The notes beneath the pieces are model-generated. The model did no database searches, had not been told where the DNA came from, and was given only the letters and a program-made list of their open reading frames with translations. Positions 5,235-17,156 of a DNA stretch of 64,000 bases are shown here, piece by piece. The translations under genes were made by a program, and so were the position numbers. The stretch comes from an uncultured Candidatus Rokubacteria bacterium (GTDB lineage: Bacteria > Methylomirabilota > Methylomirabilia > Rokubacteriales > DASRDR01), in NCBI GenBank assembly GCA_963805625.1, contig CAWDVE010000013.1, positions 512,001-576,000 on the forward strand, written 5' to 3'. Each line of letters begins with the position of its first letter. The first letter of the stretch is position 1.

Positions 5235-6905
5235 TTACATCAGGAAGTAGCGGCGGTTCATCGGCAGGTCGTCGTCGGGGATCGGCGGGAGCGGCTGGCC
5301 GTCGATCTGGATCTCCGCCGAGCCGGGGTCGATCTCGATCCGTGGATTCGCCTGGTTGTAGAGCATGTGGCGCTTGGCCACCTGCCGGGTTCCCGCCACC
5401 GGAATCGCCCGCCGCCGGGTCCCGAGCCGCCGGCGAAAGCCGCCGGCCGCCGCCGCGGCGGAGACGAAGTCGATGCTGAGGCTCGCGGCCGCCAGCCCGC
5501 TGCCCCCCCAGTGCGGCGCGTAAATCTGGGGCTCGGTCTGCGCGACGGACGCGTTGCCCTCGCCGAGGGCGCCCCAGGCGGGGTAGCCGCCCTTGATCAC
5601 CAGCTCCGGCTTGACCCCGAAGAACTCGGGGCGCCAGAGGACGATGTCGGCGCTCTTCCCCGGCTCGAGCGACCCCACCCACCGGTCGACGCCGTGGGCG
5701 CGCGCGGGGTTGATCGTGTACTTCGCCAGGTACTGGAGGATCCGCGGGTTGTCGTGCAGCGGGCGCTCGGCGCGCATGCGCTTCATCTGGTGCGCGAGCT
5801 GCCAGGTCCGGCGGATCACTTCCCCGATCCGCCCCATCCCCTGGGAGTCCGAGTTGATGATGCTGATCGCCCCCAGCTCGTGGAGCACGCTCTCCGCCCG
5901 CATCGTGGAGTCGCGGACGCGGTCGGCGATCATCGCGCGGTCGCTGGGCACCCGCGGGTTCATGCCGTGGACCGACCACATCATGGCGTGATGCTCCGCC
6001 ACCACGTTCCGGCCATACGGGATCGTCGGGGTCGTCGACGAGCCGATGACGTGGCCGATCCCCGCGATCGCCAGGATGTCCGGCGAGTGGCCGCCGCCGA
6101 TGCCCTCCACGTGGTACGCGTGGATGCTGCGCCCGGCAATGGCGGCGACCGTCTCACCGAGCTCGCACGACTCGTTGATGCCGTCGGTATGCATCGCGAT
6201 CTGGACGTCGTACACGTCGGCGACGGTGAGCGCCTCGTCGACGATGCTCGGGTACCCCGCGTAGTCCTCGTGGACCTTGAGCCCACAGGCGCCCGACTCG
6301 ATCTGGCGCTCGAGCGGGGCCGCGGTGTAGCTGGCCGCCCGCCCCAGCACGCCCAGGTTCACGGGAAAGCCCTCGAAGGCGAGGAACATGTGGTCCAGGT
6401 TGAACGCGGGGTTGTCGTTGAGGCCGCCGGTGATCAGCGTCGTCATCCCGGCAGCCAGCGCCGACGGGATGAGGCGCGGCTGGACCAGGTGGACGTGCGT
6501 GTCGATGCCGCCGGGCGTCGCGATGAAACCCTGCCCGTAGACCGGCGCGGTGTTGGAGCCGATGAGGAGATCGGGGTTGTCGACCACGTCCGGGTTGCCG
6601 GCCCGGCCCACACCGACGATCACCCCGTCCTTCACGCCGATGTTCGCCTTGAACACGCCGAGCACGGGATCCAGCACGATCACGTTCGTGACGATCAGGT
6701 CGAGCTCGCTCGCGGCCGGCAGCTCGGCGCTCATCATGATGCCGGTGCGCAGGGTCTTCGCCCAGCCGCGCAGCACCTCGTCCCCGTAGCTCGACTCGTC
6801 CCGCTCGATCCGCGCCAGGAGGTCCGTGTCCCCGAGACGCACCCGGTCACCAGTCGTGGGGCCGTAGCGCGCCGAGTACTCGGGGCGGCTCAGCTCACCG
6901 GCCAT
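5235..6905 (-). CDS. ureC: Urease alpha subunit homolog (divergent)
   Basis: YGPTTGDRVRLGDT, GGIDTHVH, GLKVHED, MHTD, YHVEGIGGGH, SDSQGMGRIGEV, KYTINPA, LPMNRRYFL. Confidence 0.92.
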   Translation of the reverse strand: MAGELSRPEYSARYGPTTGDRVRLGDTDLLARIERDESSYGDEVLRGWAKTLRTGIMMSAELPAASELDLIVTNVIVLDPVLGVFKANIGVKDGVIVGVGRAGNPDVVDNPDLLIGSNTAPVYGQGFIATPGGIDTHVHLVQPRLIPSALAAGMTTLITGGLNDNPAFNLDHMFLAFEGFPVNLGVLGRAASYTAAPLERQIESGACGLKVHEDYAGYPSIVDEALTVADVYDVQIAMHTDGINESCELGETVAAIAGRSIHAYHVEGIGGGHSPDILAIAGIGHVIGSSTTPTIPYGRNVVAEHHAMMWSVHGMNPRVPSDRAMIADRVRDSTMRAESVLHELGAISIINSDSQGMGRIGEVIRRTWQLAHQMKRMRAERPLHDNPRILQYLAKYTINPARAHGVDRWVGSLEPGKSADIVLWRPEFFGVKPELVIKGGYPAWGALGEGNASVAQTEPQIYAPHWGGSGLAAASLSIDFVSAAAAAGGFRRRLGTRRRAIPVAGTRQVAKRHMLYNQANPRIEIDPGSAEIQIDGQPLPPIPDDDLPMNRRYFLM

Positions 6906-7293
6906 GAGGCCTCTCCGGCGTGCCGGCCTCCCGGTGGCCGTAGCCGCCCTCGCGCACGCGCGCCAGGCCCTCGGCGAGCCGATCGGGCGTGGCGGCGCCC
7001 TCGGTCAGCCGGTTGAAGCCGCGCACCGCCCGCTGGCCGCCGTACGCCACGAGCCGCACTGTCCGCGTCTCGCCGGGACGCCAGCGCACCGAATCGCCCG
7101 CGGGCACGTCGAGGTGCATGCCCCAGGCCCGGCGCCGGTCGAACACGAGGCGGCGGTTGATCTCGAAGAACGGAAAGTGCGAGCTGATGAAGATCGTGTG
7201 ATCCGAGGTGTTCGTCACCGTCACCTCGGCCGTGGGCCGGCCCGCGTTCAGCGGAATCGCGCCCTCGGCGAACAGGATCTCGCCCGGCTTCAT
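6895..7293 (-). CDS. ureB: Urease beta subunit homolog
   Basis: MKPGEI...LNAGR...VTNTSDHTIFISSHFPFFEINRRLVFDR...LDVPAGDSVRWRPGE; ATGA-type overlap with ureA. Confidence 0.9.
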   Translation of the reverse strand: MKPGEILFAEGAIPLNAGRPTAEVTVTNTSDHTIFISSHFPFFEINRRLVFDRRRAWGMHLDVPAGDSVRWRPGETRTVRLVAYGGQRAVRGFNRLTEGAATPDRLAEGLARVREGGYGHREAGTPERPHGR

Positions 7294-7613
7294 GCGGTCC
7301 CCTTCCTGCCCGGTCCGATCGGCCGCTCCACGTGGAGGATCCGGGTTCCGTCCCCGAACAGGCACTCGAGCTTGACGGTACCGACGAGGTCGGCGACACC
7401 TTCCAGCACGTCGTCCTCGGTGAGAACGCTCCGGGCCGCAGTCACCACCTCCTCGTAGGAGGCTCCGCCGCGGGCGGCCTCGTGCATCTCGTCGCAGATG
7501 AGAGCCAGGGCCTCCGGGTATGTGAGCCGCCAGCCCTTGGCCCGCCGGCGGCGCGCGAGCTCCGCGGCGGTGAAGATCGTCAGGCGATCCAGCTCGGTCG
7601 GTGTCAGGCGCAT
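7290..7613 (-). CDS. ureA: Urease gamma subunit homolog
   Basis: MRLTPTELDRLTIFTAAELARRRRAKGWRLTYPEALALI...FGDGTRILHVERPI. Confidence 0.92.
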   Translation of the reverse strand: MRLTPTELDRLTIFTAAELARRRRAKGWRLTYPEALALICDEMHEAARGGASYEEVVTAARSVLTEDDVLEGVADLVGTVKLECLFGDGTRILHVERPIGPGRKGTA

Positions 7614-7699
7614 GGGTGCACTCCGTCTTGCCGGTCCTGCGGCTCGGCGGTTACGGGCGCCGGCATGATAGACGACGGGTCCCGGCCAGACAACCGCGG

Positions 7700-8836
7700 T
7701 CAGACGTCGCGCGCTCCGAGCTTCAAGAGCTCGCCGATGGCGGCCGACGCCTTGAGTCCGGAGCCCGTGAGAACCAGCACCGTCGTCTCCCCCGGCCGGA
7801 TGGTTCCGCTCGCCTGGAGCCGGCTCAGTCCCGCGGCGGCCGCGGCCGCCGTGGGCTCGACGTAGAGCCCCCGGCGCGCCAGGTCACGGAGCGCCTCGAC
7901 GATCTCCGCCTCGTCCACCGCGACCACGGCCCCGCCGCTCTCGCGCACGGCGCGCAGGACCTCGGCCACCCGCGTGGGCTTGGCCGACGCGATCCCCTCC
8001 GCCACCGTCGGAGCGATCGAGGTGGGGACGAGGTGCTCGACGCCCGCGAGGAAGGCTGCGTGGTAGGGCGCGCAGTTCGCTGCCTGGACGCCGAAGAGAC
8101 GCGGAACCGCGCCGATCTCGCCCCGGCGGAGCAGCTCGCCGAAGCCGCGGTCGCACCCCAGCACGTTGCTCCCATAGCCGAGGGGGACGACCACGTTGTC
8201 GGGCGGCCGGAAGCCGAGCTGCTCCCACAGCTCGTAGGCGAGCGTCTTCACGCCCTCCACGAAGAAGGGCTGCCAGTTGTGGCTCGCGTAGAAGATCTCG
8301 GCGCTCTGGCGGAGCGCGGCGTCGGCCACGTCCTGCCTGGAGCCCCTGATGGTGACGACGTCGGCGCCGCACGCGGCGATCTGGGCGATCTTCGGGTAGG
8401 ACGCAGTTTCGGGCACGAGGATGCGGCACGAGAGGCCGCTCCTCGCGGCGTACGCCGAGAGCGAGGCGCCGGCGTTCCCCGACGAGTCCTCCAGCACCCG
8501 CCGGATGCCGCGGCTCTTGAGGTAGCTCACCATCACGGTCATGCCGCGGTCCTTGAACGATCCCGTCGGCATCGTGAACTCGAGCTTGAAGAGGACGGCC
8601 GCGCCGCCCCAGTCGCCCGGCACGAGCGGCGTCCAGCCCTCACCGAGGCTGACGGCATCCTCGGCCTCGACCAGGAGCGCCTTCGCGTACCGCCAGACCG
8701 AGTGGCGCGAGGTCTCGATCTCCTCACGCCCGAGCCCCGGCGCCGGCCCCAGGTTCAGGTAGTGGCCGTTATCCGCGCACCACCGCGCCTCGGTGAGCGG
8801 ATACGTGCGTCCGGTGGAAGGGTCGACGTAGTTCAC
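7700..8836 (-). CDS. Threonine synthase-like PLP enzyme (fold type II)
   Basis: SLGEGWTPL, PTGSFKDRG (PLP Lys), DSSGNAGAS, EGVKTLAYE, VEPTAA, LTGSGLK; GTG start inferred. Confidence 0.88.
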   Translation of the reverse strand: MNYVDPSTGRTYPLTEARWCADNGHYLNLGPAPGLGREEIETSRHSVWRYAKALLVEAEDAVSLGEGWTPLVPGDWGGAAVLFKLEFTMPTGSFKDRGMTVMVSYLKSRGIRRVLEDSSGNAGASLSAYAARSGLSCRILVPETASYPKIAQIAACGADVVTIRGSRQDVADAALRQSAEIFYASHNWQPFFVEGVKTLAYELWEQLGFRPPDNVVVPLGYGSNVLGCDRGFGELLRRGEIGAVPRLFGVQAANCAPYHAAFLAGVEHLVPTSIAPTVAEGIASAKPTRVAEVLRAVRESGGAVVAVDEAEIVEALRDLARRGLYVEPTAAAAAAGLSRLQASGTIRPGETTVLVLTGSGLKASAAIGELLKLGARDV

Positions 8837-8874
8837 GGTGTCGGAGCGACGGGGAGTCCCCGGATCAGCCCACC

Positions 8875-11169
8875 TCAGCCGGCATCTCGCCCCGCACCAC
8901 CGTCGAGCGCCTCGACGACGTCCTGAGCGGTGATCGGGAGCGACGTGAACCGATGCCCCGTGGCAGCGGCGACGGCGTTCGCGATCGCGGCCGGCACCCC
9001 GATCACCGGAGGCTCCCCGACCCCCTTGGCGCCGAACGGTCCGTGCTCGGACGCGACCTCCAGGAGCACGGACTCGACGAGCGGCACCTGGTCGCTCTGC
9101 GGCAGCGCGTAGTCCATGAGCGTGGCGGCCAGCAGCTGGCCCTGGGCATCGTAGGGCATCCGCTCGAGCAGCGCCCAGCCGATCCCCTGCACCACCCCGC
9201 CCTGGATCTGACCCTCGACCGCGGCGGGATTGATGGCCCGGCCGACGTCCTGCACGGTGAGGTGACGCGTCACCCGGACGGCCCCGGTCTCCGTATCCAC
9301 CTCGACCTCGCTCAGGTGGGCGGCGAAGGCGGGCGAGCGCGCGACTGTCGCGCTCCCGCCCCGGCCGTACACGGGCTCGTACTTGGCGCCGAACTGCATG
9401 CTCGCCTTCGCGAGCTCGCCGAGCGGAACGGCACGGCCCGGCACCCCGCGCACCCGGACCGCGCGGTCGACGATCTCGAGATCCTCGACCGCCGCCTCCA
9501 GCCGGTCGGCGGCGATGGCCAGGAGCTGGCGCCGGGCGTCTCGGGCGGCACGCTCGACGGCCAGGCCCACGGTGTAGGTGATTTTGCTGCCGCCGCTCGC
9601 GCCGGCGTAGGGCGCGGAATCGGTGTCGCCGTTGACCACCTGGATGTCCTCGACAGGCAGACCGAAGGCCTCGGCCGCGATCTGTGCCAATGCCGTGTTG
9701 GTCCCGCTCATGTCGACGGTCCCCACGAGGATGCTGAGCGTGCCGTCCCGATCCAGCCGACAGGCCGCGTTGGCAGGCTCGATCCCGCCCATCCACCCGC
9801 CGATTGCCACCGCCGCCCCTCGCCGGTAGCGGCCGTTGGCGGGACTGGCGGGCGCGGCCTGCCGCCCGCGGTCGACCCGGAGCCGCTCGAGGCACTCGAC
9901 GAGGCCCATCTTGGGCCATGGCTGTCCGTTCACCATGGGGTCGCCCGGGCGAGAGGCGTTCCGGAGCCGCAGGTCGATGGGGTCGAGACCCGTCGCCCGC
10001 GCCAGCTCGTCCATGACGGACTCGATCGCGAACGTCCCCTGCACCGCGCCGGGCGCGCGGTAGGCGCCGTTGCCCGGCTTGTGGGTGAGCACCTCGTAGC
10101 CGCGCAGCTCGAGATTCGGCACCTGATAGTAGCTGCCCATCAGCAGGAGCGCGATCCCGAGCGGCGCACCCGCGTAGGCGCCGGCATCGAACACGGCCCG
10201 GCCCTCGAGGGCCGTGAGCGTCCCGTCGCGCCGCGCCCCCACCTTCAGCTCGATCACGGCGGGCGGCGCCGGCGTCGTCGCGAGGAACTCCTCCGTCCGC
10301 GTCATGACGATGGAGACCGGCCGGCGGAGCCGGAGCGCGAGGGCCCCGGCCAGGGGCTCCAGGAGCACGAACTTCGCCCCGAAGCCGCCGCCCAGCGGCG
10401 TCGCCACGATCCGCACCCGGTGCTCCGGCAGCCCGAGCACCTCGCACACCTCCGACCGCGTGAAGAAGAGCGCCTGCGTCGCGGTCCAGATGGTGAGCGC
10501 GCCGAGCGGATCGACGTCGGCCACCACGGCCCGCGGCTCGAGGTAGCCCTGGTGGACCATGGGGGTCTCGAAGCGGCGCTCGACCACCACGTCGGCCTCG
10601 GCGAAGCCGCGGGCGAGGTCTCCTCGGTGGAACCGCTGCGTGCTCACCACGTTGGGGCCGACCGCCTCCCGGAGCTGCTCCCCGCCGGTCGCCGCCCCGT
10701 GCATCGCGAGCTCCGCCTCGCCTCCGGCGCCGGCCGCGGCCCGCACGCGCGGGGCGTCCAGTCGCATGGCGCCCCGCGCGTCGAGCGCCGCCGGGAGAGG
10801 CTCGTACTCGACCTCGACGAGCGCGGCTGCGTCCTCGGCGATCGCCGCCGTCTCGGCGACGACGGCGGCCACCGGATGCCCCACGAACAGTGCGTGGCCG
10901 AGCGCGAGGGGCGACTTACTCCGCGCGGTGGGATCGACGTTGGCGAGGCCGAGATCGGCGGCAGCGAAGACGCCCAGGACCCCGGGCCGGGCCGCGGCCT
11001 CGCTCCCGTCCACCCGCGCGATCCGCGCGTGGGCGTGGGGGCTCAGGACGAGGCGGGCGTGAAGCATGCGAGGCAGCTGGAGATCGCCCGCGAAGCGGGT
11101 GAGGCCGGTCACCTTCTCTCCGCCGTCGAGGCGGCGAACGGACCGGCCAATGGACGAACCCTGGGTCAT
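8875..11169 (-). CDS. Xanthine dehydrogenase family molybdopterin-binding (large) subunit
   Basis: KVTGLTRFAGD, HQGYLEP, GGGFGAK, AYRAPG, ASGGS, VEGQIQGG, GAKGVGEPP. Confidence 0.92.
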   Translation of the reverse strand: MTQGSSIGRSVRRLDGGEKVTGLTRFAGDLQLPRMLHARLVLSPHAHARIARVDGSEAAARPGVLGVFAAADLGLANVDPTARSKSPLALGHALFVGHPVAAVVAETAAIAEDAAALVEVEYEPLPAALDARGAMRLDAPRVRAAAGAGGEAELAMHGAATGGEQLREAVGPNVVSTQRFHRGDLARGFAEADVVVERRFETPMVHQGYLEPRAVVADVDPLGALTIWTATQALFFTRSEVCEVLGLPEHRVRIVATPLGGGFGAKFVLLEPLAGALALRLRRPVSIVMTRTEEFLATTPAPPAVIELKVGARRDGTLTALEGRAVFDAGAYAGAPLGIALLLMGSYYQVPNLELRGYEVLTHKPGNGAYRAPGAVQGTFAIESVMDELARATGLDPIDLRLRNASRPGDPMVNGQPWPKMGLVECLERLRVDRGRQAAPASPANGRYRRGAAVAIGGWMGGIEPANAACRLDRDGTLSILVGTVDMSGTNTALAQIAAEAFGLPVEDIQVVNGDTDSAPYAGASGGSKITYTVGLAVERAARDARRQLLAIAADRLEAAVEDLEIVDRAVRVRGVPGRAVPLGELAKASMQFGAKYEPVYGRGGSATVARSPAFAAHLSEVEVDTETGAVRVTRHLTVQDVGRAINPAAVEGQIQGGVVQGIGWALLERMPYDAQGQLLAATLMDYALPQSDQVPLVESVLLEVASEHGPFGAKGVGEPPVIGVPAAIANAVAAATGHRFTSLPITAQDVVEALDGGAGRDAG

Positions 11170-11262
11170 GTCGGGGCTCCCTTGAGCGAGTGGGGTCGGC
11201 GACACCTCCTCGATCTTACTGCGAGGGATGCGTCAGGGCGAGTGGATGCGCCTCACTCGACC

Positions 11263-11694
11263 TCAGGGCGCGAGCAAGGCGTCGACCGACCACAGGCCGG
11301 CCCCACCCAGGATCAGCGCGAGCGCGACGCCGAGGACCAGGAGGTGGAACTCGAAGCCTTCCCCCTTCTGGCTGCCGTACCAGTTCATGAAGAATCCGTG
11401 CGGCGTGTGGGTCGTCAGCACCGCGACCACCATCACGCACGCGATCCCGAACGCCGCCACCCGGGTGAGCAGGCCGATGGCGAGGCCGATCGGCCCGAGG
11501 AACTCGGCCACGATGGCCAGGAATCCGAGCGGCGCCGGGAATTTCTGGTTGAAGTACCCCATCGTGCCCTTGAAGCCGTAGCCCCCGAACCACCCGAGCG
11601 CCTTCTGGGCGCCGTGCGGGAACATAACGATGGCGAGGGTCCATCGGAGGATGAGCTGGATCACGCTGGCGTCGGTCGAGAGCAGCCATCTCAT
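11263..11694 (-). CDS. DoxX family membrane protein
   Basis: AGGAGGT RBS; LILR...MFPHGAQKALGWFGG, AEFLG, GFEFHLL, GAGLWSVD. Confidence 0.9.
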   Translation of the reverse strand: MRWLLSTDASVIQLILRWTLAIVMFPHGAQKALGWFGGYGFKGTMGYFNQKFPAPLGFLAIVAEFLGPIGLAIGLLTRVAAFGIACVMVVAVLTTHTPHGFFMNWYGSQKGEGFEFHLLVLGVALALILGGAGLWSVDALLAP

Positions 11695-11769
11695 TGGCGG
11701 ACCTCCTACTGGGAAGTGGTGGTCCCGAGTCAGGATGCCCGTTGGGGCCAGCATCCTGGACGCTCTCGG

Positions 11770-12750
11770 TCACGGATAGAAGGTGCGGCGCCCTTCCTCT
11801 CGCGTCCAGACCCGGAGCAGGTGACGCTTCCGGCTCGGCTCCGGCGCGTCCCGGAAGTCGGTGCGGCTGTGGGCGAACTCACGGTTGTTGAGGTACTGGA
11901 TCTGGCCGCGGTCGATCGTGAACTCCACCCAGAGGTCGGGCGAGTCCACGACGAGGCGCATGGCCTCGAGCGCGTCCTTCCCCTCCCGGTCGAGCGGCGT
12001 GCCGGCCAGCTCGGCCCCCGCCTCGATCAGCCGCTCGTTGAAGCGCCCCACGAACGAGCGGCCGTCGTACTGGAAGATCGGCTGCGCGCCCACCTTCGAA
12101 TCATCGGGCGCATGCTCGGCCTGGCGGTCCCACGGGAACGGCTGGTAGAGGCGCGGGAGGAGGTCCGGGTGGCGCCGCCGGAGCTCGTTGTGCACAGTGC
12201 ACAGGCTGACGAAGCGGCTCACTCCGCCCTCCTGCGCCGGGTTGATGCAATAGAGCCCGACCAGGTGGGGCGGCAGATCGAGCCACGGGCCGTCGGTGTG
12301 AAACGTCAGGTCGAGGTTGGTGATCGACCGCCGCACTCCGTACTCGAGCGGCTTCCCCGTGTCCCGGACGTCGTACAGCATGGCGCCGTTCCACGCCTGC
12401 GCAACCGGGCGCTGGAGGAGCTGACTCAGGAGCCAGCACAGCACTCGGTTCTCCTCCGGCTCGTATCGCTCCACGGGCAGCCGATCCACCACGGCCAGCC
12501 CGATGCCGGTGGAGAGCCGGGCGCGGACGTCGTCCATCAGCGCGCCACACGCGGGGAGCGCGAACTGGTCGGGGCTCAAGAGGAGCATCGGCAATGGGTT
12601 CCGGCGAACCTGCCGGACGACCTGATCTAGCTCGTCGACGCACCGGGGCGACAGCGGCACCAGCCAGTCGCGCGGGGACAGCGTCTCCCGACGCCATGTC
12701 CGCCTGTCCCGAACGTCGTGGGTCAGCATGAGTGGCGCGAGACCGGGCAT
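11770..12750 (-). CDS. TauD/TfdA family Fe(II)/2-oxoglutarate dioxygenase
   Basis: FHTDG (HxD), GGVSRFVS, NNREFAHSRT (distal His), RHLLRVW. Confidence 0.88.
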   Translation of the reverse strand: MPGLAPLMLTHDVRDRRTWRRETLSPRDWLVPLSPRCVDELDQVVRQVRRNPLPMLLLSPDQFALPACGALMDDVRARLSTGIGLAVVDRLPVERYEPEENRVLCWLLSQLLQRPVAQAWNGAMLYDVRDTGKPLEYGVRRSITNLDLTFHTDGPWLDLPPHLVGLYCINPAQEGGVSRFVSLCTVHNELRRRHPDLLPRLYQPFPWDRQAEHAPDDSKVGAQPIFQYDGRSFVGRFNERLIEAGAELAGTPLDREGKDALEAMRLVVDSPDLWVEFTIDRGQIQYLNNREFAHSRTDFRDAPEPSRKRHLLRVWTREEGRRTFYP

Positions 12751-12876
12751 CGTCAGGAAGCCTCCGGCGCCACTATAGCTCTGTCGCGTCCGGCCGGCAT
12801 CCCGCCCCAGCCCGGCGGTAGAGCCCGTCACCTGCGGGCGCGGACCCCGCGCCCCGCACCCCTCGGCGCGCTCCCG

Positions 12877-13542
12877 CTACCCCTTCAGCAGGGACTTCAG
12901 CAGCGTGCTCACGCCGTTCCAGATGATCTGGACGCCGATGCACAGCGCGATGAAGGCCGAGAGGCGAAGGAGGACGCTGGTCCCCGTCGGTCCGAGCACC
13001 CGCGCGATGCCCTCGGCGAAGCGGTAGCAGAGGAAGATGAAGAGCGCGATGAGGGCCACGCCGATGACCATCGCCACGATCATCGCCACGATGTTGATGC
13101 CGGTCTGCGACGTGTTGGCGCCGAGGGTGATGGCCACCGACATCGAGCCCGGTCCCACTGTGAGCGGCAAGGTGAGCGGGTAGAAGGCCCGCCTCGCCAG
13201 CTCCTCGGGTCTCCACGTCGTGGCGGCGGGCGCCGCCACCTCCTCTTCACCCTGATGGAGGAACCTCCAGCCGAAGGACATGATCAGAAGGCCGCCTCCG
13301 ACCTGCACGATGGGAAGCGACAGCCCGAAGAAGTCGAGGATGTACGACCCGATGAACATCGACACCACCAGGATGAAGAAGACGTTCACGGCGATCCGCC
13401 AGGCCAACGCCTTCCGCATGGCCGTCGAACAGCTGGCCGTGCTCGCCAGGAAGATCGGCACGCTCGCCGGGGGATTGGTGATGGACGCGAGCGCGGCGAA
13501 CACGAGCGCGACGACCTTCAGCGCCAGGACGAGCTGGGTCAC
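12877..13542 (-). CDS. MarC family membrane protein
   Basis: NPPASVPIF, ILDFFGLSLPIVQVGGGLL, YPLTLPLTVGPGS, LGPTGTSVLLRLSAFIALCIGVQ; GTGA overlap with upstream gene. Confidence 0.9.
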   Translation of the reverse strand: MTQLVLALKVVALVFAALASITNPPASVPIFLASTASCSTAMRKALAWRIAVNVFFILVVSMFIGSYILDFFGLSLPIVQVGGGLLIMSFGWRFLHQGEEEVAAPAATTWRPEELARRAFYPLTLPLTVGPGSMSVAITLGANTSQTGINIVAMIVAMVIGVALIALFIFLCYRFAEGIARVLGPTGTSVLLRLSAFIALCIGVQIIWNGVSTLLKSLLKG

Positions 13543-14161
13543 AGGCCGAGCACCGCGCGCCGGCGTCCGGGCCCATCGAGGACTTGGTCCAGCACCCAGT
13601 TGTTGAGTCGGTGCACCGCCGGCTCGCGGAGCGCGAACGGGCCGGGCCGCCTCAGGACGGAGGTGAGGCCGGCCTGCTGCGCCTCGCAGATGTCGTTGTC
13701 CTCGGCGATGCCCGTCTCCCATCGATGCATGTACTTCTTCACTCCGGCCTCGAAGTCCGCCCGCGCCACCGTGGTCCGCGGGAAGCAGAAGCCGACGCCG
13801 AGCCGGGAGCGCGCGGGCCCGAGCGGGACGACCCGGAGCCACCACATGCAGTCCTGCGTGCAGGCGAACTGGGTGGCGGGGTGGAGCATCGTGAAGTACG
13901 TCCCCCGGGCGGCTCGCCCGGAGAGACCGGGCACCGGCGGGAACGGCGCCGTCTCGCCGGGCAGGACGGCGATGCTCGTCTCCTGCGGGATGTGGATGGC
14001 GTCCCAGTGCCCGCGGGTGTCCTCCTGCACCGCGTACTGCTGCCCGAGGCTCGCGTGATGGACCGTCCCGGTCTGGGCGTGTAGCACCACGCGGGGAGCG
14101 TCTCGGCCTCGCCGACCGGCCGGCGGACGCCGCGGTACTGCGCGGGATCGAAGAGATCCAT
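13539..14161 (-). pseudogene. Rieske ring-hydroxylating oxygenase alpha subunit with the Rieske domain deleted
   Basis: N-terminus MDLFDP...AETLPAWCYT joins out of frame near 14075 to TGTVHHASLG...EDNDICEAQQAGL...EPAVHRL; no CxH/CxxH motifs. Confidence 0.8.
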
Positions 14162-14235
14162 GGAGACCGTCCTATCGCGTCACGGACGTCGCGTCCACCC
14201 GGGGCAAGGGCACGGCGCGGCCAAGGCGGTCATCG

Positions 14236-15441
14236 TCATCGGGTCGCCCGGAGCGACCCCAGCGCTCCGGCCAGGCGCTCGTAGTCCGCGGCCACGTTGT
14301 AGAGTTGGGCGGAGACGCGGAGGATGCGGCACGCGAGCGCCGGCCAGGTGAAGACCGGGAGCTCGAGTCCGAAGCGATCGAAGAGGGCGGTCTGGAGCGG
14401 GTCGCGCTCGCCGTCCACCGGGGCCGGGCCAAAGCCCGGCGGCACGGGCAGCGCGACGAGGGATCCGATCATCGAGTCCGGCGCCGGAGGCGGCACGCCC
14501 AGTGCGGCGGACAGGCGGTCGCGGGCCGCGAGGGCAGTGCTCCGGTTGTGCGCCATGAGCGCTGGCCAGCCACCGGGGAGGAGCGACCCCATGTAGCGGA
14601 TGGCCTCCGGGACGGTGAGGTAGGCCGTGGGGTCAGCCGTGCCCGTCCAGTCGAACTCGAGCCGGAACGTCGAGCGGTCCGTTCGCGGCGAGTTGGCGCC
14701 GTGGCTGATCACCAGCGGGCGCACCCCCTTCTGGCGGTCACGCCTCACGTGCAGGAACCCCGAGCCCTTCGGCGCACAGATCCACTTGTGACAGTTCCCC
14801 GTGTAGTAGGCGGCACCGAGCGCTCGAAGGTCGAGGGGGACCATCCCGGGTGCGTGCGCGCCGTCGACCAACGTGTCGACCCCGCGCGATTCGAGCCCGC
14901 GGACGAGTCGCTCGATCGGAAGGATCAGGCCCGTCGGGCTCGTCACGTGGTCGACGAGCGCCAGCCGTGTCCGCGGGCTCACCCGCGACAGCACCGCTTC
15001 GAGCGCCCGCTCCGGGGTGGCGGCGGGGAACGGCAGGGTGGCCACGACGACGCGCGCGCCCGCGCGAGCCGCGACGGCCTCCAGCGCGTTCCGGCAGGCG
15101 TTGTAGGTGTGGTCCGTGGCGAGGAGCTCGTCGCCCGCTCCGAGATCCAGCCACCGGAGCACCGTGTTGGCGCCCGTCGTGGCGTTCGGGACGAAGACGA
15201 GGTCGTCCGGATCGGCGCCCACGAACGCGCCGAGCGCGTCTCGCGCCTGGTCGAGCAGCCCCTCCAGCTCCCGGCTCAGGAACCGCACCGGCTCCGCCTC
15301 CAGGCGGTCGCGGAGACGCCCTTGCGCGTCCAGCACCGCGCGGGGGCAGGCCCCGAACGAGCCGTGGTTCAGAAAGGTGACGTCGGGGTCGAGCGGCCAG
15401 AGTCGGCGCCAGCCGTCGGAGGAGGGTCCTGGAAGGGTCAC
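14236..15441 (-). CDS. Class V PLP enzyme, isopenicillin N epimerase / L-cysteine desulfhydrase-like
   Basis: FLNHGSFGACP, VPNATTG, DHVTSPTG, VDGAHAPG, GNCHKWICAPKG, RVSAQLYN. Confidence 0.88.
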   Translation of the reverse strand: MTLPGPSSDGWRRLWPLDPDVTFLNHGSFGACPRAVLDAQGRLRDRLEAEPVRFLSRELEGLLDQARDALGAFVGADPDDLVFVPNATTGANTVLRWLDLGAGDELLATDHTYNACRNALEAVAARAGARVVVATLPFPAATPERALEAVLSRVSPRTRLALVDHVTSPTGLILPIERLVRGLESRGVDTLVDGAHAPGMVPLDLRALGAAYYTGNCHKWICAPKGSGFLHVRRDRQKGVRPLVISHGANSPRTDRSTFRLEFDWTGTADPTAYLTVPEAIRYMGSLLPGGWPALMAHNRSTALAARDRLSAALGVPPPAPDSMIGSLVALPVPPGFGPAPVDGERDPLQTALFDRFGLELPVFTWPALACRILRVSAQLYNVAADYERLAGALGSLRATR

Positions 15442-15606: not shown

Positions 15607-16270
15607 AAATATAATAAAATTAATAAATATATGTTATATGGAATGTGCGCTGTGTGTGTGCGACGCGTGGGGATGAGGACGTGAGAGATGAGTATGAACG
15701 CAGTGCACAGAGTACGTGACGAGAGTGCGGCGGCGATGAAGCGCGAAGGCGATCGACGAAGCGCCGCACCGGAGCGTATGGAAGAGGGTCGTGCACGAGC
15801 AGGCGCTAAGGACGACGGCGGAAGACGTGAGCGACCTACTGGCTATCATGCTCGGCTCATCGTGATCGCGATATGATGGCTTTGACGCGTTCACGCTGAT
15901 GGCTGATGTTTGGTATGATTTAAGAGAACTGTCAGAACAAGATTTGATGATGGTGCAGGAAGTACGGTGATAAAAATTTATGTTTGTGTTATTAATATAG
16001 TTAATGTTAAGTATGGTTGGTTGTGTAATTGTGTGGGTTTGGTATGTTGGTGTATGGCCGCCGCGGTGGCGAGCGTGCCCGGTGGCACCGCGGACCACGC
16101 ACCAGACCTCGGGACGGCGACCGCGCGCGCGCGGCGGTGAGGAGAAGCCCCAGGAGCTCGGGCCGCGGAACCGAGGTGGCGGAGATCGAGCCGCCGGCCT
16201 ACGATGCGCCGCCGAGGAGATGACGTCCGCGCGGGCCAGACCGCGGCTCGACGGCGAGCAAGGTTCCCGC
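15607..16270. other. Low-quality AT-rich, low-complexity sequence; garbled TRAP transporter dctQ-end/dctM-start; probable assembly artefact
   Basis: Abrupt AT-rich runs (aaatataataaaattaataaatat) in a GC-rich genome; near 15845-15902 the degraded bases read approximately IMLGLIVIAIMMGF..AFTLM, like a DctM N-terminus. Confidence 0.7.
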
Positions 16271-16280
16271 GCATTTTACA

Positions 16281-17156
16281 GTGGTTCTGGCTGACCCTCT
16301 CCGCGCTCTGCTCCTAGTCTACTTCTGGCGCATGGACGGCGAGCAGCTCGAGATCCTCAAGGAGCTGATCGCGTCGGTCGTGCCGCTCGGAGTGCTCACC
16401 GCCGTCGTGCTCGCCGTGATCCTGTTCGGATCTGCACCGCCACGGAGTCGGCGGCGATCGGCGCGCTCGGCGCCTCTACTGGCCGTGATGTCGAAGTTCG
16501 CGCGCGAGGCACTGTGGTGGAGCCTGGTCGGGGCCATTCTCGGCTTCGGTCTCGGATGGTACGAGGGTAGAGCTTCGCGTCGCTGCTCGTGGCGGCTCGA
16601 TCAGCGGAGCTTCCTGGACCGTGGTGCCGACCTTCGACCGTGGCACGTGAGAGCTCGCCCAAGCAGTCGACGTTCCTCACCGCGAAGACGACCGCCATGG
16701 TGTGCTGGCTGTTCGTCGGCTCGGCGCTGTTCTCGGCCGTCTTCGCGCTGCACGGCGGTCAGGGGCTGATCGAGCGGTGGGTACTGAGCATGAACCTGTC
16801 GCCGCTCGGCTTCAGATCACGGCGCAGCTGATATCTTCCTGCTCGGCTGGCCGCTCGAGTGGACCGAGATCATCGTGATCTTCTGCCCGATCTTCATTCC
16901 GCTGCTGAGCCACTTCCACATCGATCCCATCCTGTTCGGCACATGGTCGCGGTGAACCTCCAGGCCGCGTTCCTCTCGCCGCCGGTGGCGATGTCCGCCT
17001 TCTACCTCAAGGGCGTCGCGCCAAAGCACGTGACGCTGAACCAGATCTTCGCCGGGCATGATGCCGTACATGATCATCGTGTGCATCTGCCTGGTCTTCA
17101 TGTACATCTGGCCGGGCATGACGCTCTGGCTGCCCGAGTTCCTGTACGGGAACTGA
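16281..17156 (+). pseudogene. TRAP transporter large permease (DctM), multiply frameshifted
   Basis: Fragments TFLTAKTTAMVCWLFVGSALFSAVF, LLGWPLEWTEIIVIFCPIFIPLL, VAVNLQAAFLSPPVAMSAFYLKGVAP, WPGMTLWLPEFLYGN in different frames. Confidence 0.8.

What the first reader, a model, noticed from the sequence alone, without database searches (positions are those of the whole stretch)
5235..6905. Urease alpha homolog with an intact dimetal site but a remodelled substrate pocket
Seen: all six metal-ligand positions are present (HxH in DTHVH, K in GLKVHED, H in MHTD, H in YHVEG, D in SDSQ). The normally near-invariant GGGTGP..GT.ATTCTPG loop is replaced by TGGLNDNP, about 10 residues shorter. The flap MVCHHL reads WSVHGM (Cys319 to Val, His321 to Gly, K. 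aerogenes numbering), SQAMG is SQGMG, and FGGGK is RGWAK. Known: the Ala167 loop, the Cys319 flap and Ala363 line the urea-binding pocket. Inference: this is a urease-fold enzyme for a different or bulkier substrate, such as a substituted urea, amide or guanidine-type compound, and pipelines would misannotate it as urease.
Basis: partly seen in the sequence, partly recalled or inferred. Interest (0 to 1): 0.72.

Follow-up and report, generated by a model that had tools for sequence, protein, structure and literature searches.

The report
Chaperone-free urease paralog with rebuilt pocket
These three genes encode an intact urease-type metal enzyme from a conserved branch found mainly in uncultured bacteria; it has a rebuilt substrate pocket, lies apart from urease's nickel-loading and urea-import genes, and likely splits a urea derivative rather than urea although databases call it urease.

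Summary
Observation confirmed. Window 5235-6905 (-) is an intact 556-aa UreC homolog behind ureA and ureB. All six metal ligands and the partners H219, D221, G277, H320 and R336 (K. aerogenes numbering) are kept. The Ala167 loop is exactly 10 residues shorter, and the flap, Ala363 and FGGGK motifs differ as described. These changes are fixed across 121 close sequences under purifying selection. The proteins form a clade outside canonical ureases (AU p 8e-20), inside a wider radiation of remodelled UreC paralogs. No ureD/E/F/G lies in 64 clade loci (29 of 32 canonical controls have them). The 99.9%-complete host genome lacks ureDFG and urtA. Nine of 24 carrier genomes hold ureF, eight of them beside a second, separate ureC. 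The short loop lines up with the Asn94 loop of allantoinase. Best reading (0.5): an accessory-independent dimetal hydrolase for an N-substituted urea or ureide. Main rival (0.25): an accessory-free, iron-type true urease. 'Bulkier substrate' is not shown, because Trp48, Trp310 and Ile269 add bulk. Nothing was assayed, and I found no paper on this clade. The scan noted similar short-loop paralogs on other DNA before (e1-5243281).

The parts
5235..6905 (-). ureC-like catalytic alpha subunit, 556 aa (P0002)
   Evidence: Pfam Urease_alpha + Amidohydro_1; NF009686 692.9 bits over cut-off 354, TIGR01792 628.4 under cut-off 680; AF2 pLDDT 89.5; VIA Z 51.5, rmsd 1.9, 538 aligned to 2kau_C
6895..7293 (-). 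ureB-like beta subunit, 132 aa; stop overlaps the ureC start by 11 nt
   Evidence: (TIGR00192 117.3 over 90.3)
7290..7613 (-). ureA-like gamma subunit, 107 aa; ATGA overlap with ureB
   Evidence: (TIGR00193 103.5 over 82.3)
6756..6770 (-). R46-G-W48-A-K50 in place of FGGGK; W48 aligns to H. pylori Gly47, which lines the neighbouring subunit's active site
   Evidence: alignment; passage in bioRxiv 10.1101/2020.09.14.290999; W48 121/121
6489..6497 (-). H137-x-H139 metal ligands
6408..6431 (-). T159-GGLNDN-P166, short beta2 loop (10 aa shorter than canonical; Ala167 segment gone); in ungapped register with allantoinase MPLNxxP
6264..6278 (-). K210 (predicted carbamylated bridging Lys), H212, E213, D214
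   Evidence: carbamylation inferred from family knowledge
6189..6191 (-). H239 metal ligand (K. aerogenes H246)
6111..6113 (-). H265 metal ligand (K. aerogenes H272)
5961..5978 (-). flap W310-S-V312-H313-G314-M315 (C319V, H320 kept, H321G, M317W)
5832..5849 (-). D353 metal ligand and SQGMG (A363G)
7665..7693 (-). sigma70-like site TTGTCT-17-TATCAT, 52 nt upstream of ureA; a possible own promoter
   Evidence: 1 found, 0.1 expected in shuffles; kept in L004-L006 only among 14 other loci aligned; function untested

Best explanation
The three genes encode an intact urease-fold alpha/beta/gamma enzyme of a distinct clade that likely loads its two metals without UreDFG and likely hydrolyses a small N-substituted urea or ureide (R-NH-CO-NH2) rather than urea itself. 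Shown: the fold, all six ligand positions, the fixed pocket changes, the clade, and the separation from the accessory and urea-uptake genes. Inferred mechanism: K210 is carbamylated and bridges two divalent metals, likely Fe, Mn, Zn or Co, as in cyclic amidohydrolases and iron urease. The substrate carbonyl binds metal 1 with H212, and the bridging hydroxide attacks it. The flap H313 with R329/D214 and G270 handles the free NH2 end as in urease, releasing ammonia plus an N-substituted carbamate that decays to amine and CO2. The substituted nitrogen would sit where the deleted Ala167 loop closed the pocket, contacted by the new L-N-D-N-P loop (N163 in the register of allantoinase Asn94) and W48 from the neighbouring subunit. 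The role would be scavenging organic nitrogen from ureide or hydantoin breakdown; the exact substrate is open.
For: Ligands and catalytic partners are invariant while the pocket is fixed in another state. dN/dS is 0.06-0.17 in 13 pairs, and pN is 0.02 against pS 0.40 over 32 motif codons. The clade (20 rows) has support 1.0 inside a non-canonical radiation; joining it to canonical ureases is rejected (AU p 8e-20). UreD/E/F/G hits: 0 of 64 clade loci, 29 of 32 canonical loci. The host genome (99.91% complete) has no UreD, UreF, UreG, UrtA or full-length urea carboxylase. In the host genus, 8 of 10 genomes carry the gene and 0 of 10 carry UreF or UrtA. In 8 of the 9 carrier genomes with UreF, it lies beside a second 48-51% ureC, and UrtA lies on that ureC's contig in 5 of 6 such Methylomirabilota genomes. 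Urea contacts in 6QDY are His222, Ala366, Ala170 and Gly280 (PMC12873531 table); the Ala170 segment is deleted here. The loop aligns ungapped with allantoinase MPLNxxPA. Some loci put it directly behind an N-carbamoyl-amino-acid hydrolase, with dihydropyrimidinase and a CobW-type chaperone downstream (L023, L070, L087).
Against: No activity data. Accessory-free true ureases exist: H. mustelae UreA2B2, and B. subtilis lacks accessory genes (PMC6737895). UreB2 shares AYH[IV]EG and SSTTPT with this clade. Ala167 and Ala363 bind urea through backbone carbonyls (my knowledge), so A363G keeps the group, and it also occurs in accessory-linked UreC next to urtA (L140). W48, W310 and I269 add bulk, so the pocket may not be larger. 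There is no conserved neighbour beyond ureAB. The hydantoinase/carbamoylase link comes from one lineage plus L057, L058 and L067. My enrichment test was circular and did not discriminate: control families were also above expectation. An agmatinase-like ureohydrolase, which would make urea, lies downstream in L068 and L018. The host-genus genomes are kin, not independent.
Confidence: 0.5

Rival explanations
1. It is a true urea hydrolase that self-assembles without chaperones, probably with iron or another non-nickel metal, like H. mustelae UreA2B2. The shorter loop and Cys/His loss in the flap would serve metal or CO2 entry or oxidation resistance rather than a new substrate.
For: All urea-side catalytic residues except the Ala167 loop are kept. 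It shares AYH[IV]EG and SSTTPT with 3qga. UreA2B2 needs no accessory proteins and co-exists with a Ni urease (PMC6737895; PMC11541087). The host has no other urea-splitting system. A ureohydrolase is adjacent in L068 and L018.
Against: UreB2 keeps the full-length loop, FGAGK and MTCHHL, whereas this clade changes all three. UrtA tracks the canonical copy, never this one, in the genomes searched. Each branch of the radiation has its own fixed loop and flap, as expected for substrate diversification.
Confidence: 0.25
2. It is a carboxamide or cyclic amide/imide hydrolase (formamide, acetamide, oxamate, or a small hydantoin or cyclic urea), using the allantoinase-like loop as cyclic amidohydrolases do.
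For: Loop register with allantoinase; amidases, hydantoinases and a RutD-like hydrolase among the neighbours; jack bean urease was studied on formamide, acetamide and N-methylurea (title only, reference list of PMC6077230).
Against: The urease flap with H320 and R336 and the GGGH loop that bind a terminal NH2 are fully kept. Neighbour enrichment is not specific. Sister short-loop branches lack the Asn.
Confidence: 0.15
3. It is a guanidine- or amidine-type hydrolase.
Against: The carbonyl-binding His219 equivalent is invariant. No Rfam family, guanidine riboswitches included, reached its gathering score in the window and 5 loci.
Confidence: 0.05
4. It is a decayed or non-catalytic urease remnant.
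For: Two loci carry frameshifted copies (L026/G207; L096), and the accessory genes are absent.
Against: The frame is intact, the ligands are invariant in 121 of 121 sequences, dN/dS is 0.06-0.17, and the model is confident.
Confidence: 0.03

Closest known systems
Canonical Ni-urease UreABC (K. aerogenes 2KAU/1FWJ, S. pasteurii 4UBP/6QDY, H. pylori 1E9Y)
   Same: Three subunits in ABC order; same fold (TM 0.92-0.94; Z 51.5, rmsd 1.9); six ligands, H219, D221, G277, H320 and R336; 43-44% structural identity.
   Different: Ala167 loop 10 aa shorter; C319V, H321G, M317W, A363G, A276I, G47W (H. pylori numbering); no ureDEFG or urtA linkage; below the TIGR01792 cut-off (628-652 for 8 clade proteins against 962-981 for 3 canonical); separate clade.
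Iron urease UreA2B2 of Helicobacter mustelae (3QGA)
   Same: Accessory-independent second urease-type enzyme kept beside a Ni urease (PMC6737895 passage); shares AYH[IV]EG and SSTTPT.
   Different: UreB2 keeps the long loop, the Cys-His-His flap and Ala363, is a two-subunit enzyme and hydrolyses urea. It could not be placed in my tree.
Stand-alone ure(AB)C clusters of Streptomyces (SCO5525-5526, SAV2715)
   Same: Described as clusters of structural genes only (PMC2492869 passage). A Streptomyces plasmid stand-alone UreC (L138) falls in the same non-canonical radiation.
   Different: L138 has a different, longer loop (QNFGPTWGCGV) and a fused ureAB-length gene. I found no biochemistry for these. 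SCO5526 itself was not fetched, so its placement is by analogy.
Allantoinase AllB and other cyclic amidohydrolases (3E74/8HFD, dihydroorotase, hydantoinase)
   Same: Same 4His/Asp/carbamyl-Lys site (PMC9863593 passage); short beta2 loop L-N-x-x-P-A in ungapped register, N163 on Asn94.
   Different: About 17-22% identity and Z about 24 for hydantoinases and dihydroorotases. They have no beta/gamma subunits, no urease flap and no C-terminal arm. The loop match is four residues, was noticed after the fact, and is off by one against dihydroorotase.

Membership tests
Urease alpha-subunit family (structural) | Urease_alpha N-terminal domain plus amidohydrolase barrel, urease fold | tested here: met
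Urease alpha-subunit family (structural) | Encoded with beta and gamma subunits | tested here: met
Canonical Ni-urease (EC 3.5.1.5) | His134, His136, Lys217, His246, His272, Asp360 ligand set | tested here: met
Canonical Ni-urease (EC 3.5.1.5) | His219, Asp221, Gly277, His320, Arg336 catalytic partners | tested here: met
Canonical Ni-urease (EC 3.5.1.5) | Full-length Ala167 loop (GGGTGP...ATT.TPG) | tested here: not met
   10 residues shorter; 29 against 39 residues between anchor columns (groups there were picked by motif)
Canonical Ni-urease (EC 3.5.1.5) | Flap Cys319-His320-His321, Ala363, FGGGK | tested here: not met
   V-H-G, Gly, RGW[AG]K
Canonical Ni-urease (EC 3.5.1.5) | Equivalog TIGR01792 above cut-off 680 | tested here: not met
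   628.4; 8 of 8 clade proteins below
Canonical Ni-urease (EC 3.5.1.5) | UreD, UreF, UreG available for activation | tested here: not met
   none in the 99.91%-complete host; 0 of 64 clade loci
Canonical Ni-urease (EC 3.5.1.5) | Groups with canonical UreC in phylogeny | tested here: not met
   AU p 8e-20
Canonical Ni-urease (EC 3.5.1.5) | Nickel content and urea hydrolysis | not testable with these tools
   needs purified enzyme
Iron urease UreA2B2 type | Structural genes without linked accessory genes | tested here: met
Iron urease UreA2B2 type | Canonical urea pocket (long loop, CHH flap, Ala363) as in 3QGA | tested here: not met
   alignment to 3qga_C
Iron urease UreA2B2 type | Fe-dependent urea hydrolysis | not testable with these tools
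   needs assay
Cyclic amidohydrolases (allantoinase, hydantoinase, dihydroorotase) | Family HMM cut-off or nearest fold | tested here: not met
   NF009941 26.6 bits against cut-off 647; Z about 24 against 51 for ureases
Cyclic amidohydrolases (allantoinase, hydantoinase, dihydroorotase) | Short beta2 loop with substrate-side Asn | tested here: inconclusive
   in register with allantoinase, one residue off against dihydroorotase; no coordinates to superpose

The most novel reading that the evidence does not exclude
The urease family is not a one-substrate family. This clade is a chaperone-free, probably non-nickel hydrolase for a urea derivative, one of many substrate-diversified branches all annotated as urease. 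Its allantoinase-like short loop could even be the ancestral state from which Ni-urease and its long urea-clamping loop arose (a root on the short-loop group is not rejected, AU p 0.20, though not preferred).
Probability: 0.45. Interest if true: 0.78.

Novelty: new variant of a known kind. Interest (0 to 1): 0.58.

Why it matters
Urease is treated as a urea-only nickel enzyme that needs UreDFG, and ureC counts are used as a proxy for urea use in soils. A strongly conserved clade with an intact metal site, a different pocket and no chaperones would be the first UreABC with another natural substrate, or else a second self-assembling non-nickel urease. Either result gives a direct handle on why urease needs chaperones and on what the Ala167 loop and flap do. 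It would also mean that 'urease subunit alpha' calls in Rokubacteria and other uncultured bacteria overstate ureolysis. The test is simple: three small genes and an ammonia assay.

Tried and rejected
Conserved neighbour: none beyond ureAB across 64 loci. The thrC-like, Mo-enzyme, TauD and DoxX block upstream is shared only by close Rokubacteria relatives and is read as kinship synteny. Neighbour enrichment test: 8 C-N hydrolase hits in 24 locus groups against 0.79 expected. The query proteins came from these same loci and the control families were also high (7 against 1.45), so it is not used as evidence. HypA/HypB about 70 kb away belong to a hydrogenase cluster, not UreG. Rooting with 7 cyclic amidohydrolases put the root among ure2-type rows, but roots on short-loop, short+mid or canonical groups were not rejected (p 0.198, 0.206, 0.215): the order of events is unsettled. 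Expression: 15 runs held only 5-12% of the words, and laid contigs are relatives' fragments in RNA libraries, so transcription is not shown. Rfam: no match in 6 sources. Wider sampling at E<=1e-185: the clade was found only in the seed genome among 301 of the Burkholderiales-labelled genome's order, and only in the seed among 301 Chloroflexota; the other Chloroflexota hit, at 56%, is another subfamily. No clade member among 167 plasmid records with a match (all under 60%). Literature: nine answered searches gave no paper on this clade; the library lacks most subscription papers, and Carter et al. 2011 was not held. No complex prediction was run.

Full report
What is there. The window carries ureA (7290-7613), ureB (6895-7293) and ureC (5235-6905) on the minus strand, with overlapping stop and start codons. 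UreA and UreB pass their NCBIfam domain cut-offs. UreC passes the broad subfamily model NF009686 (692.9 bits, cut-off 354) but not the equivalog TIGR01792 (628.4, cut-off 680); 8 of 8 clade proteins tested score 628-652, and 3 canonical controls 962-981. Close relatives are Rokubacteria/Methylomirabilota MAGs. No accessory gene is in the neighbourhood: upstream lie a threonine-synthase-like PLP enzyme and a molybdo-enzyme subunit.

Observation check. Residues 128-189 align to K. aerogenes UreC 125-196, so the loop is 10 residues shorter and later numbering shifts by 7. All six ligand positions are present, as are H219, E220, D221, G277, H320 and R336. Changed are the Ala167 loop (TGGLNDNP), C319V, H321G, M317W, A276I and A363G; FGGGK reads RGW[AG]K. 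In P0002 plus its 120 best hits (81-94% identical), 238 of 556 positions are invariant, including all ligands, W48, W310, H313 and G356; N163 is 119/121. dN/dS over the first 370 codons is 0.06-0.17 in 13 pairs; over 32 motif codons pN is 0.02 against pS 0.40. An AlphaFold2 model (pLDDT 89.5, pTM 0.93; its alignment held canonical and non-canonical rows) matches ureases at TM 0.92-0.94 and Z 51.5, rmsd 1.9 over 538 residues to 2kau_C.

Phylogeny. A search of 50%-identity representatives showed several further UreC subfamilies with intact ligands, each with its own loop and flap. In a FastTree tree of 69 chosen rows (549 columns), 20 clade rows form one branch (support 1.0), sister to other short-loop forms (0.987), inside a 36-row non-canonical radiation (0.999). 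An IQ-TREE quick tree of 37 rows with the loop columns removed gives the same nesting. Forcing 4 clade rows together with 10 canonical rows is rejected (AU p 8e-20). The root is unsettled: three alternative roots are not rejected (p 0.198-0.215). H. mustelae, B. subtilis and S. coelicolor sequences were not in the trees.

Decoupling from urease biology. The host genome (99.91% complete, 6.26% contamination) has this one ureC and no UreD, UreF, UreG (the only hit is a hydrogenase HypB), UrtA or full-length urea carboxylase. tblastn with 15 annotated UreD/E/F/G proteins hit 0 of 64 clade loci (656 kb; 30 loci of 9 kb or more; many are kin), 0 of 12 other non-canonical loci, and 29 of 32 canonical loci. 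Among 200 genomes of the phylum, 118 have a ureC hit, 14 carry the clade gene at 80% identity or more, and 108 have UreF. In the host genus, 8 of 10 carry the clade gene and 0 of 10 have UreF or UrtA. The other 6 carriers also hold a second ureC at 48-51% identity; ureF lies next to that copy in 5 of 6 and urtA is on its contig in 5 of 6. I did not read the motifs of those 6 second copies; 15 of 16 sampled hits in the same score range were canonical. Ten more carrier genomes reached through loci (labelled Planctomycetota, Chloroflexota, Nitrospiraceae, Burkholderiales, Gammaproteobacteria and others; completeness not given) have UreF in 3 of 10, each beside a separate ureC. UrtA was found in 1 of the 5 tested, a genome with such a second copy. 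In all, 15 of 24 carriers lack UreF. Outside the seed genomes the clade was not found in 300 genomes each of two larger groups, so it is patchy.

Pocket. The review PMC12873531 (passages) lists His222, Ala366, Ala170 and Gly280 as urea contacts in S. pasteurii 6QDY. The Ala170 segment is the part deleted here; His222 and Gly280 are kept, and Ala366 becomes Gly. The preprint 10.1101/2020.09.14.290999 (passages) shows Gly47 and Ile467 of the neighbouring subunit lining the site; Gly47 is Trp48 here. The deletion opens space, but Trp48, Trp310 and Ile269 add bulk, so 'different' is supported and 'bulkier' is not. I recalled the allantoinase loop motif from memory and then tested it: hhalign of the clade alignment against 3 allantoinases aligns AGMTTLITGGLNDNPA without gaps to AGGITTFVEMPLNAQPA, and counting in the 8HFD alignment puts that Asn at 94. 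That Asn94 binds substrate is my recall; PMC9863593 (passages) shows it only as a docking contact. The match is four residues, is one position off against dihydroorotase, and sister branches lack the Asn, so it is a lead only.

Neighbours. I scanned 129 called genes from the 23 genome loci and 64 plus 93 proteins mostly from the metagenome loci, out of 344 and about 190 called. Nothing besides ureAB is conserved. One lineage (L023, L070, L071, L072, L080, L087) has an allantoate-amidohydrolase/N-carbamoylase gene directly upstream; the three longest go on to an ABC transporter, CobW and dihydropyrimidinase. L058 is divergent from dihydropyrimidinase plus carbamoylase, L057 from a gene of that cluster, and L067 lies next to cytosine-deaminase-like and hydantoinase-like genes. 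L068 and L018 have an agmatinase-like gene downstream, which fits urea as well as a substituted urea. A count against genome background was circular and control families were also high, so this context is suggestive at most.

Against my reading. Accessory-free true ureases are described: UreA2B2 is active without accessory proteins and B. subtilis has none (PMC6737895, passages; PMC11541087, passages). UreB2 shares AYH[IV]EG and SSTTPT with this clade but keeps the long loop, the CHH flap and Ala363. SQGMG with a loop 4-5 residues shorter occurs in accessory-linked UreC, one next to urtA. Without this enzyme the host has no recognised way to split urea. Transcription was not shown.

Mechanism. 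Shown: fold, ligand set, fixed pocket changes, clade, and absence of chaperone and urea-uptake linkage. Inferred: carbamyl-Lys dimetal centre loaded without UreDFG and probably not Ni; urease-type attack on a ureido carbonyl with the free NH2 at the H313/G270 side; the substituted nitrogen at the rebuilt loop. I put an N-substituted urea or ureide at 0.5, accessory-free true urease at 0.25, amide or cyclic amide at 0.15, guanidine at 0.05 and dead enzyme at 0.03.

Known or new. Nine answered full-text searches (listings and abstract starts) returned no study of this clade. PMC2492869 (passages) notes Streptomyces clusters of ure(AB)C only, and PMC3293853 (passages) calls SCO5525-5526 urea-utilising without an assay in the passages seen. 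PMC6077230 (passages) states that UreD, F and G are crucial; PMC2667541 (passages) added nothing. Carter et al. 2011 was not held, and no supplements were read. Earlier scan notes on other genomes describe a chaperone-free short-loop urease-like enzyme and related stand-alone branches; my reading was written before I saw them, and the words 'short-loop' and 'chaperone-free' follow that note. Verdict: a real, uncharacterised variant of the urease family, not a canonical urease by the tested criteria, with substrate unproven; interest 0.58.

Noticed in passing
P0123, P0124, P0126-P0129, P0132, P0134, P0139; L097, L098, L101, L103, L108, L157: At least eight further UreC subfamilies keep all metal ligands and His320 but each has its own loop, flap and a non-Gly residue at the Gly47 position; 0 of 12 such loci had ureDEFG.
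   Followed up: partly
P0138, P0153, P0158, P0162, P0163, P0172, P0201: Full-length UreC-like proteins that have lost most metal ligands yet keep a long loop: possible non-catalytic urease paralogs.
   Followed up: no
L138:6267-8647 (Streptomyces anulatus plasmid NZ_CP109401.1): Stand-alone non-canonical ure(AB)C directly downstream of NRPS adenylation and condensation genes and a phosphotransferase, suggesting a role in a biosynthetic cluster.
   Followed up: no
L157:7897-8454 and 8467-9999 (G750): A non-canonical UreC (GSGGVWDLGVNP loop) convergent with a DUF1989/UAAP-like gene, below cut-off.
   Followed up: no
L023:14683-15702, L070:15524-16567, L087:15456-16475: CobW/COG0523-type metallochaperone in the same gene run as the clade ureABC and dihydropyrimidinase: a candidate alternative metal supply.
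   Followed up: partly
L026:10001-11670 and L096:8001-9634: Clade ureC split by frameshifts in a Gammaproteobacteria-labelled MAG and a metagenome contig; decay or assembly error not decided.
   Followed up: no
L156:7853-9490 (G202): A second, split non-canonical ureC in a Chloroflexota genome that also holds the clade gene and no UreF.
   Followed up: partly
window 7700-15441: Run of thrC-like PLP enzyme, xanthine-dehydrogenase-like Mo subunit, DoxX, TauD-family dioxygenase, MarC, a Rieske-oxygenase fragment and a class-V PLP enzyme, conserved upstream in close Rokubacteria relatives. The Rieske gene looks truncated in the window (183 aa against about 383 in relatives).
   Followed up: partly
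window 15634-16294: A stretch with low-GC, low-complexity-looking sequence inside a 70% GC contig (seen in the ORF list); possibly an assembly artefact.
   Followed up: no
L019: The record is titled Candidatus Acidoferrum but matches genome G151 placed in the window's own phylum, so NCBI labels overstate the clade's phylum spread in this case.
   Followed up: partly
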